This document shows, in pieces, positions 41,195-42,552 of a DNA stretch of 64,000 bases. Position 1 is the first letter of the stretch. Each line of letters opens with the position of its first letter. The notes beneath the pieces are model-generated. The model did no database searches, was not told the DNA's origin, and saw only the letters and a program-made list of their open reading frames with translations. Origin of the DNA: Eledone cirrhosa (Eukaryota). A program made the position numbers and the translations under genes. The DNA lies in contig OZ024751.1 in NCBI GenBank assembly GCA_964016885.1, positions 25,482,001-25,546,000 of the forward strand. Direction: 5' to 3'.

Positions 41195-41449
41195 TACACG
41201 TAATATAATAAAATAGAATGTTGTTGACATGTATACACACGCACACACACACACACACACACACACATATATATATATATATATATATATATATATATAT
41301 ATTTTTAGTATATGTTGGTTGTATACCAACACCTCAGTATGCAGGCTGGAGCACTCGACGAAGTGCGCAGGTTGGTTTGGTTACTCCTGAGTAATGTAAA
41401 ATAAAGTTAAATAAAAAGTCAAATGTTTAAAATTTAGCTTCGTTTATTG

Positions 41450-41502
41450 CTGCTATATATATTTCAGTGACAGCCATCTTTGGCTGTGACCTCTTCAGGC
41501 AG
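41450..41502 (-). ncRNA. Minimal hammerhead (family 6), left palindrome arm
   Basis: Reverse complement of 41799-41851. Confidence 0.85.
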
Positions 41503-41798
41503 TCCGAATTAGTGTGGTATAGACAAGTACATATGTTGTTGAGGTGTATAATATTGTCAATACTCTGATATGCCCAGTTCCTGGTTGGGTTGTTATTTCA
41601 CTGAGGAACTGGAATCATATGATTCCAGTTCCTCAGTGAAATAACAACCTATGATTCCAGTTCCTCAGTGAAATAACAACCCATGATTCCAGTTCCTCAG
41701 TGAAATAACAACCCAACCAGGAACTGGGCATATCAGAGTATTGACAATATTATACACCTCAACAACATATGTACTTGTCTATACCACACTAATTCGGA

Positions 41799-41851
41799 CT
41801 GCCTGAAGAGGTCACAGCCAAAGATGGCTGTCACTGAAATATATATAGCAG
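41799..41851 (+). ncRNA. Minimal hammerhead (family 6), right palindrome arm
   Basis: ctgc-CTGAAGA-ggtcacagcca-aaga-tggctgtcact-GAAA-tatata-TA-gcag, then aataaa. Confidence 0.85.
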
Positions 41852-42552
41852 CAATAAACGAAGCTAAATTTTAAACATTTGACTTTTTATTTAACTTTAT
41901 TTTATATATATATATATATGTGTGTGTGTGTGTGTGTGTGTGTGTGTGTGTGTGTGTGTGTGTGTGTGTGTGTGTGTGTGTGTGTGTGTGTGTGTGTGTG
42001 TGTGTGTGTGTATACATATCGACACCATTCTATTTTATTATATTACGTGTACAGATCTACATATATATATATGAAGTAAATATATATATATGTATAAGTA
42101 TATATATATATATATATATATATATATATATATATATATATATATATATATATATGTGTGTGTGTGTGTATGTGTGTGTAGATATATATTTTAATAAATA
42201 TTTGCTCTAGGGTTCTTATATATTTGATACATATTTATCCTTATCGAGCCCGCTTTCGATTTTAGTCTTCACATGTATTATTATTACTATATATATATAT
42301 ATATGTATATATATATATATATATATATATATATATATATATATATATATATATATATGTGTGTATATATATATATATATATATATATATGTATATATAT
42401 ATATATATATATATATATATATGTATATATATATATATATATATGTATATATATATATATATATATATATGTATATATATATATATATATATATATATAT
42501 ATATATATATACAATATTAAATAAATGGAAACTATATTTATAAAACCATATT

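What the first reader, a model, noticed from the sequence alone, without database searches (positions are those of the whole stretch)
41397..41904. Zero-loop 222-bp palindrome with a hammerhead on each arm and a triple restart at the apex
Seen: arm 41397-41618 mirrors exactly at aatcat|atgatt. The first 32 bp of the return arm occur three times (41619, 41651, 41683) before the arm runs to 41904. Intact HHRs lie at 41450 (-) and 41799 (+), and (TA)n flanks both sides. Known: PLE insertions often carry inverted truncated terminal repeats, and PLE RTs are related to telomerase RT. Inference: a very recent insertion that records repeated re-priming on the same template end, a telomerase-like stutter. 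A smaller stutter is seen at 39280-39311.
Basis: partly seen in the sequence, partly recalled or inferred. Interest (0 to 1): 0.8.

Follow-up and report, generated by a model that had tools for sequence, protein, structure and literature searches.

The report
Stuttered junction in Penelope-type palindrome
Two identical 222-base end-pieces of an abundant, likely Penelope-like jumping gene sit head to head with two extra 32-base copies at their meeting point, most likely scars of aborted attempts to join the two new DNA copies during insertion rather than telomerase-style repeat synthesis, and the stutter is not yet confirmed in reads.

Summary
The structure is in the sequence: arms 41397-41618 and 41683-41904 are identical (222/222), with 64 bp between them made of two extra copies of the first 32 bp. 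Laid public contigs and reads show a high-copy family. The 94 bp left of the left arm belong to the element (a tail on one arm only), the tail-less end recurs beside (TA)n, and the 'zero loop' is a native 8-bp palindrome, TCATATGA. That is the published insertion unit of Penelope-like elements (PLEs). The hammerhead core is complete, but its 10.1-11.1 pair is G.U and in the palindrome it is predicted to be locked in the long hairpin. The triplication is not native to the family. Repeats touch 2 of 9 palindrome apexes in the window (about 0.07 expected). The telomerase analogy fails its defining test: 0-1 nt of realignment complementarity, and the two junctions differ in register. Best reading (0.5): repeated, aborted DNA-templated priming at the 3' end of the tail-less cDNA while the two cDNAs were joined, by the PLE RT or a host polymerase such as Pol theta. 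No laid read or contig was shown to span the stutter. Known architecture, modest new detail.

The parts
41267..41302 (.). Left (TA)18 tract, likely the target microsatellite
   Evidence: TRF; sequence
41303..41396 (-). 94-bp 3' tail of the element, present on the left arm only
   Evidence: Family contigs run across 41303-41405 at depth like the arm (tables 2 and 8); aligns with the one-sided tail of family C
41397..41618 (-). Left arm, 5'-truncated 3' end of family A
   Evidence: 222/222 reverse complement of the right arm
41450..41502 (-). Type I hammerhead motif, left arm
   Evidence: Motif scan, core at 41498
41615..41622 (.). Native 8-bp palindrome TCATATGA, the inversion point
   Evidence: Family contigs align to 41622 and then leave with other letters (14 contigs X1, 12 X2, 1 X4, table 7)
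41619..41682 (+). Apex stutter: two extra copies of the first 31-32 bp of the right arm; junction 1 carries T (41650), junction 2 carries C (41682)
41683..41904 (+). Right arm, tail-less; ends at the family's recurrent short end
   Evidence: loose ends at the mirror place 41397 are (TA)n in 9 X1 contigs and 1 X4 contig
41799..41851 (+). Type I hammerhead motif: stem I 4 bp, core 41803-41809, long stem II closed by G.U, GAAA at 41836, palindromic helix III (41839-41846), followed by AATAAA
41905..42011 (.). Right (TA)n then (TG)46 tract
41188..41236 (+). Older inverted flank X; partner X' at 42010-42058 (46/49 identical)
39138..39346 (.). Family B head-to-head insert with a 77-bp one-sided tail and a smaller apex stutter (39279-39311)

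Best explanation
This is a young stub of a high-copy, likely Penelope-like retroelement: two identical 3'-end pieces lie head to head between (TA)n tracts, joined at a native 8-bp palindrome, and the two extra 32-bp units are likely scars of aborted joining attempts. Shown: the anatomy, the family's high copy number, the one-sided tail, the native palindrome, the non-native triplication. Inferred mechanism: the element's protein nicks both strands of (TA)n and makes two cDNAs from two start sites (tailed and tail-less). Both end at a recurrent 5' boundary whose last four bases (ATAT) are self-complementary. The tailed cDNA anneals to the end of the tail-less cDNA and is extended 31 nt. Because the new stretch is complementary to its own strand, it can snap back and release the template. 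It re-engages the same physical 3' end twice more with 0-1 nt of pairing, each time one base further in (equivalents of 41617, 41618, 41619), and the third round completes the join. The polymerase is either the PLE RT jumping to a DNA 3' end or a host end-joining polymerase such as Pol theta; this is not resolved. The hammerheads are passengers: any read-through RNA is predicted to pair them in a 222-bp hairpin.
For: Identical arms and three units. Family context: 3570 contigs laid in X1; tail covered like the arm; (TA)n loose ends at 41397; family letters leave the window after 41622, so upstream of the unit the family has no 32-bp repeat; 6 of the 15 joints shown (31 in all) land at 41613-41622 or its equivalent 41683, and four different joints (from 41328, 41405, 41416, 41550; tables 5 and 5c) land on 41617, a recurrent boundary. 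Other copies carry junction inserts, one holding 11 nt of the arm end (41405 to 41617, read by eye), and one goes back 14 nt (41529 to 41515). Junction microhomology 0-1 nt. The second stutter (39279-39311) also repeats the start of the tail-less arm. Apex association 2 of 9 against about 0.07 expected, P about 0.002, definitions post hoc. Literature: PLE protein cleaves and extends both strands, and two RT start sites define the tail (PMC11167929, parts 1-2 of 4); head-to-head arms with junction palindromes are typical (PMC3846280, passages); aborted rounds of Pol theta synthesis leave direct-repeat templated insertions of 3-30 bp (PMC7165422, passages).
Against: No listed piece spans either stutter junction; X4 has zero depth over 41655-41686 and X14 only 1-4 reads. 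Pol theta first-round tracts are rarely over 10 bp, so 31-32 nt twice is long for it. Two rounds of near-equal length need a stall site; the only candidate is a weak 4-bp mini-hairpin 2-4 nt beyond the stops. One restart plus later slippage gives exactly the same letters (T-unit-T-unit-C-unit). The one-base progression rests on one locus. 7 of 9 palindromes in the window have no apex repeat. No RT or endonuclease ORF is linked to family A. An intramolecular snap-back gives the same apex as two-cDNA annealing.
Confidence: 0.5

Rival explanations
1. One non-homologous restart at insertion made a dimer (junction with C). Later, ordinary replication slippage on the bottom strand, stalled at the hairpin apex just past T41618, realigned 32 nt back over 31 matching bases and added the third unit, carrying the native T.
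For: The three 31-nt cores are identical and the separators are T, T, C, the pattern such a slip gives. A perfect 29 x 2.9 triplication away from any palindrome lies at 38165-38248. Minisatellites are common in the window (15 arrays).
Against: It needs extension from a terminal mismatch, and a second event within the short time that left the arms at 0/222 differences. It still needs one restart at the apex.
Confidence: 0.2
2. Telomerase-like reiteration: the PLE RT reaches the RNA's 5' end, translocates back 32 nt on the same RNA and recopies it twice.
For: A recurrent 5' boundary near 41617; near-constant 32-nt period; PLE RTs are the sister group of TERT (PMC8557442 abstract).
Against: Complementarity at the realignment site is 1 nt and 0 nt, whereas telomerase needs an alignment region. 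The register shifts between junctions. The family B stutter has unequal pieces with 5 nt between repeats. Template jumping by retroelement RTs pairs a short overhang with an incoming template's 3' end (PMC8857657, abstract and section 10), not with an internal site.
Confidence: 0.12
3. The palindrome is real but the stutter is an assembly, polishing or amplification artefact at a hairpin apex.
For: No listed piece spans the stutter; the best holders carry only 0.73-0.77 of sampled words.
Against: The arms end at family-specific boundaries seen in other copies, which a chimeric read would not respect. A second, differently built stutter sits at another apex. The junction T equals the native base. 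The share of words cannot show which words are missing.
Confidence: 0.1
4. The triplication is an ordinary tandem duplication unrelated to the insertion, or a native repeat of the element.
For: 15 tandem arrays occur in about 43.5 kb of non-microsatellite sequence.
Against: The array starts at the apex to the base; 2 of 9 apexes against about 0.07 expected. Family contigs leave the window after 41622 with non-repeat letters.
Confidence: 0.08

Closest known systems
Canonical EN+ PLE insertion unit with inverted pLTR and one-sided tail (PMC3846280, passages; PMC8557442, passages)
   Same: Head-to-head arrangement, palindrome at the inverted junction, tail on one arm only, (TA)n as a described PLE target.
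   Different: No ORF (stub only); tail 94 bp against the 30-40 bp described; direct-repeat stutter at the junction not seen in the passages read or in searches.
PLE hammerheads with small palindromic helix III (PMC4209133, parts 1-2 of 4)
   Same: Type I core, long helix II, short helix I, palindromic helix III suited to dimer action; opposite-strand pairs 100-700 bp apart were already reported there.
   Different: G.U in place of the conserved G10.1-C11.1 (C in 36-43% of family depth), no bulged base after position 9, stem I shortened by a rare substitution; activity untested.
Poseidon PAc in vitro mechanism (PMC11167929, parts 1-2 of 4)
   Same: Both strands cut and extended; AT-rich targets; two RT start sites explain the tail.
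   Different: The parts read do not treat 5' joining or repeats at the junction.
Pol theta templated insertions (PMC7165422, passages) and snap-back or join 5' junctions of R2 insertions (PMC11371274, passages; PMC2718515, passages)
   Same: Direct repeats of break-proximal sequence from aborted rounds with little or no microhomology, in AT-rich DNA.
   Different: Tracts here are 31-32 nt, at or above the reported range; the two ends joined are identical cDNAs.
Telomerase repeat addition (PMC4993307, passages)
   Same: Head-to-tail recopying of one short segment; related RT.
   Different: No alignment region, no constant register, only two extra units, template type unknown.

Membership tests
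Penelope-like element (EN+), truncated copy | PLE-type RT ORF | not testable with these tools
   The insert is a 602-bp stub; no genome is held; two collection scans for longer copies found 0 matches.
Penelope-like element (EN+), truncated copy | GIY-YIG endonuclease linked to the same family | tested here: inconclusive
   A broken GIY-YIG relic lies at 61516-61824 (PF01541, E 8.9e-6); its downstream DNA aligns only marginally with family A (score 62, best of 300 shuffles 60).
Penelope-like element (EN+), truncated copy | Inverted 5'-truncated terminal copy, head to head, palindrome at junction | tested here: met
Penelope-like element (EN+), truncated copy | Tail on one end only | tested here: met
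   94 bp, longer than described; recurrent tail-less end at 41397; the same in families B and C.
Penelope-like element (EN+), truncated copy | Hammerhead motif in the terminal repeat | tested here: met
   Motif scan; no Rfam hit.
Penelope-like element (EN+), truncated copy | Target site duplication | tested here: inconclusive
   Not readable inside (TA)n; no empty allele seen.
Type I hammerhead ribozyme | Core C3-A9, G12-A14, A15.1-U16.1, H17 | tested here: met
Type I hammerhead ribozyme | G10.1-C11.1 pair | tested here: not met
   G.U in both arms; C in 36-43% of family depth.
Type I hammerhead ribozyme | Active fold and self-cleavage | not testable with these tools
   Monomer fold with helix III has probability 0.0004; in the whole insert the core is paired with its antisense copy. 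Cleavage needs a bench assay.
Telomerase-type repeat addition | Alignment region that lets the product end re-pair on the template | tested here: not met
   0-1 nt
Telomerase-type repeat addition | Constant register of added repeats | tested here: not met
   The junctions differ by one base; the family B pieces are unequal.
Telomerase-type repeat addition | RNA template reused by an RT | not testable with these tools
   Sequence cannot tell an RNA from a cDNA template.
Pol theta templated insertion | Direct repeat of break-proximal flank with short or no microhomology | tested here: met
Pol theta templated insertion | Tract length mostly up to 10 bp, range 3-30 | tested here: inconclusive
   31-32 nt here; 14 nt in family B.
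Pol theta templated insertion | Dependence on POLQ | not testable with these tools
   Needs a knockout assay.

The most novel reading that the evidence does not exclude
The PLE reverse transcriptase itself performs processive repeat addition at a defined template end, without an alignment region, and apex stutters are genomic fossils of this proto-telomerase activity, countable across thousands of insertions in this high-copy family.
Probability: 0.12. Interest if true: 0.75.

Novelty: new variant of a known kind. Interest (0 to 1): 0.3.

Why it matters
How PLEs finish their inverted 5' junction is still undefined in the papers read. Apex stutters with base-level register, in a genome with very many young palindromic stubs, could be counted to tell two-cDNA end-joining from snap-back and RT jumping from host repair. 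If they proved to be RT repeat addition they would bear on the origin of telomerase, but the evidence here points to junction scars. The palindrome and its hammerheads are ordinary for PLEs.

Tried and rejected
No genome is held for the window, so no genome-wide survey or empty-allele search was possible. Rfam found no hammerhead; the miRNA hits are generic hairpin matches below gathering scores. Two metagenome scans for longer copies gave 0 matches. No RNA holder listed, so siRNA and editing were not examined. Rejected: a third hammerhead across the apex (hit at 41601), because its core pairs with its own mirror image. Rejected: a native 32-bp repeat. Rejected: one large fold-back that also copied the host flank X/X', because X differs at 3 of 49 against 0 of 222 in the arms (Fisher P 0.006). 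Rejected: missing-adapter chimera for the palindrome, because arm ends match family boundaries. Depth over unit 2 in X1 and X2 (about 12,000 summed) was not taken as support, since short shared contigs fit several places. The greedy apex parser was poor on diverged family B copies and was used only for A and the direct-repeat list. Earlier-findings look-ups by sequence and for stutter words returned nothing; one search returned only partial matches and two weak microsatellite look-alikes. Supplements of the cited papers were not read and may show junction duplications in PLEs.

Full report
Observation. The reverse complement of 41397-41618 occurs once in the window, at 41683-41904, with 0 of 222 mismatches. 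The arms are 64 bp apart; only 31 bp mirror with no loop. The spacer is two further copies of the start of the right arm: three identical 31-nt cores preceded by T (41618), T (41650) and C (41682). Type I hammerhead motifs lie at 41799-41851 (+) and 41450-41502 (-); Rfam does not report them. (TA)n abuts the right arm; on the left it lies 94 bp away. The smaller stutter is a 14-nt direct repeat with period 19 at 39279-39311.

Family context. No genome is held. Sixteen runs were listed, three holding 0.73-0.77 of 104 sampled words. Four of the 16 were laid on 41303-41760: X1 and X2 (one sample, possibly the assembly's source), X4 (another organism label) and X14 (raw reduced-representation reads). 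The element is a high-copy family (3570 contigs laid in X1). The 94 bp at 41303-41396 are covered like the arm, so they are the element's tail, present on the left arm only. At 41397 loose ends are (TA)n in 9 X1 contigs and 1 X4 contig, so the right arm stops at a recurrent short end. After 41622 family contigs leave the window with other letters (14 in X1, 12 in X2, 1 in X4; 24 of 455 loose-end rows were shown). Hence TCATATGA (41615-41622) is a native palindrome and the triplication is not native. Of 15 joints shown (31 in all), 6 land at 41613-41622 or 41683; with table 5c, four different joints land on 41617. Other copies carry extra letters at the junction, one with 11 nt of the arm end (read by eye), and one goes back 14 nt. 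Against my reading: no listed piece spans the stutter, X4 has no depth over 41655-41686 and X14 has 1-4 reads there, so the stutter rests on the assembly alone.

The window holds nine head-to-head or fold-back palindromes that I counted, among them four of family B and one of family C. Family C is a distant relative of A with a hammerhead on each arm and a one-sided tail (alignment score 81, best of 300 shuffles 60). Arm differences range from 0 to 6 mismatches, so arms do diverge here and 0/222 indicates youth (95% upper bound 1.3%). The insert sits inside an older inverted flank X/X' (46/49; Fisher P 0.006 against equal age). A broken GIY-YIG frame at 61516-61824 shows PLE-type relics nearby, but its link to family A is marginal.

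Hammerheads. All core bases are present, with a palindromic helix III as described for some PLE hammerheads (PMC4209133, parts 1-2 of 4). The conserved G10.1-C11.1 pair is G.U in both arms (C in 36-43% of family depth), and a rare base (the other letter holds 97-99.7% of depth) shortens stem I. The monomer fold has probability 0.0004, and in the whole insert the motif is paired with its antisense copy. They are best read as passengers.

Mechanism. Head-to-head arms, a junction palindrome and a one-sided tail are the published PLE unit (PMC3846280 and PMC8557442, passages). Purified Poseidon protein cuts and extends both strands, and two RT start sites define the tail (PMC11167929, parts 1-2 of 4). 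I infer two cDNAs meeting at a recurrent boundary whose last four bases are self-complementary. Tandem arrays touch 2 of 9 apexes against about 0.07 expected (P about 0.002; 15 arrays, 5-bp tolerance, post hoc), and both stutters repeat the start of the tail-less arm. Telomerase needs an alignment region (PMC4993307, passages); here realignment complementarity is 1 and 0 nt and the register shifts. A restart at a physical 3' end needs no such region: read along the top strand, the three starts step inward by one base each. This resembles direct-repeat templated insertions from aborted Pol theta rounds (PMC7165422, passages), though those tracts are rarely over 10 bp, and it resembles RT jumping to a template's 3' end (PMC8857657, abstract and section 10). 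Complex 5' junctions are known for R1 and R2 (PMC2718515 and PMC11371274, passages). One restart plus later slippage yields the same letters and cannot be excluded. Odds: repeated end-joining 0.5, restart plus slippage 0.2, RT reiteration on RNA 0.12, artefact 0.1, chance or native 0.08.

Novelty. Searches listed no paper whose title or abstract start points to direct-repeat stutters at PLE inverted junctions; the library lacks most subscription papers and no supplements were read. A 2026 preprint on retrozymes and PLEs (10.64898/2026.07.22.740005, passages) did not bear on junctions. Earlier notes of this scan report similar palindromic PLE stubs in other genomes; they are unchecked leads, not support. 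Verdict: a known PLE insertion type with a junction scar that is worth a genome-wide count; interest 0.3.

Noticed in passing
window 42510-42965: Family C palindrome (182-bp arms, 181 identical, 7-nt loop) with a hammerhead motif on each arm and a tail on the right arm only; further copies at 19613-19879, 54975-55086, 62397-62552.
   Followed up: partly
window 836-1032, 4122-4253, 35305-35487, 39138-39346, 60082-60242: Five copies of family B beside (TA)n, four of them palindromic with different apexes; the copy at 60082 turns at a native hairpin.
   Followed up: partly
window 41188-41236 and 42010-42058: Older inverted flank (46/49) around the microsatellites that enclose the insert.
   Followed up: partly
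window 61516-61990: Broken GIY-YIG frame (PF01541) followed by what looks by eye like a decayed hammerhead near 61960.
   Followed up: partly
window 56780-57184 (-): Open frame resembling the C-terminal restriction-like endonuclease of a site-specific non-LTR element (recalled motif; no passing Pfam hit).
   Followed up: no
window 37880-37951: Zero-loop 48-bp palindrome with no evident PLE link, directly followed by a 16-bp-period duplication.
   Followed up: no
window 38165-38248: Perfect 29-bp x 2.9 triplication away from any palindrome; each junction holds a 6-bp palindrome.
   Followed up: partly
window 40640-40708: Fold-back inside a dispersed SINE-like repeat (label recalled), suggesting host fold-back events besides PLE ones.
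   Followed up: no
window 24939-25007; 18793-18923; 28986-30879: Further inverted repeats, two of them centred on (TA)n tracts.
   Followed up: no
window 41431-41510: In run X14 over a thousand reads match only the hammerhead segment and continue in unlike sequence, hinting at another family or short element that shares just this segment.
   Followed up: no
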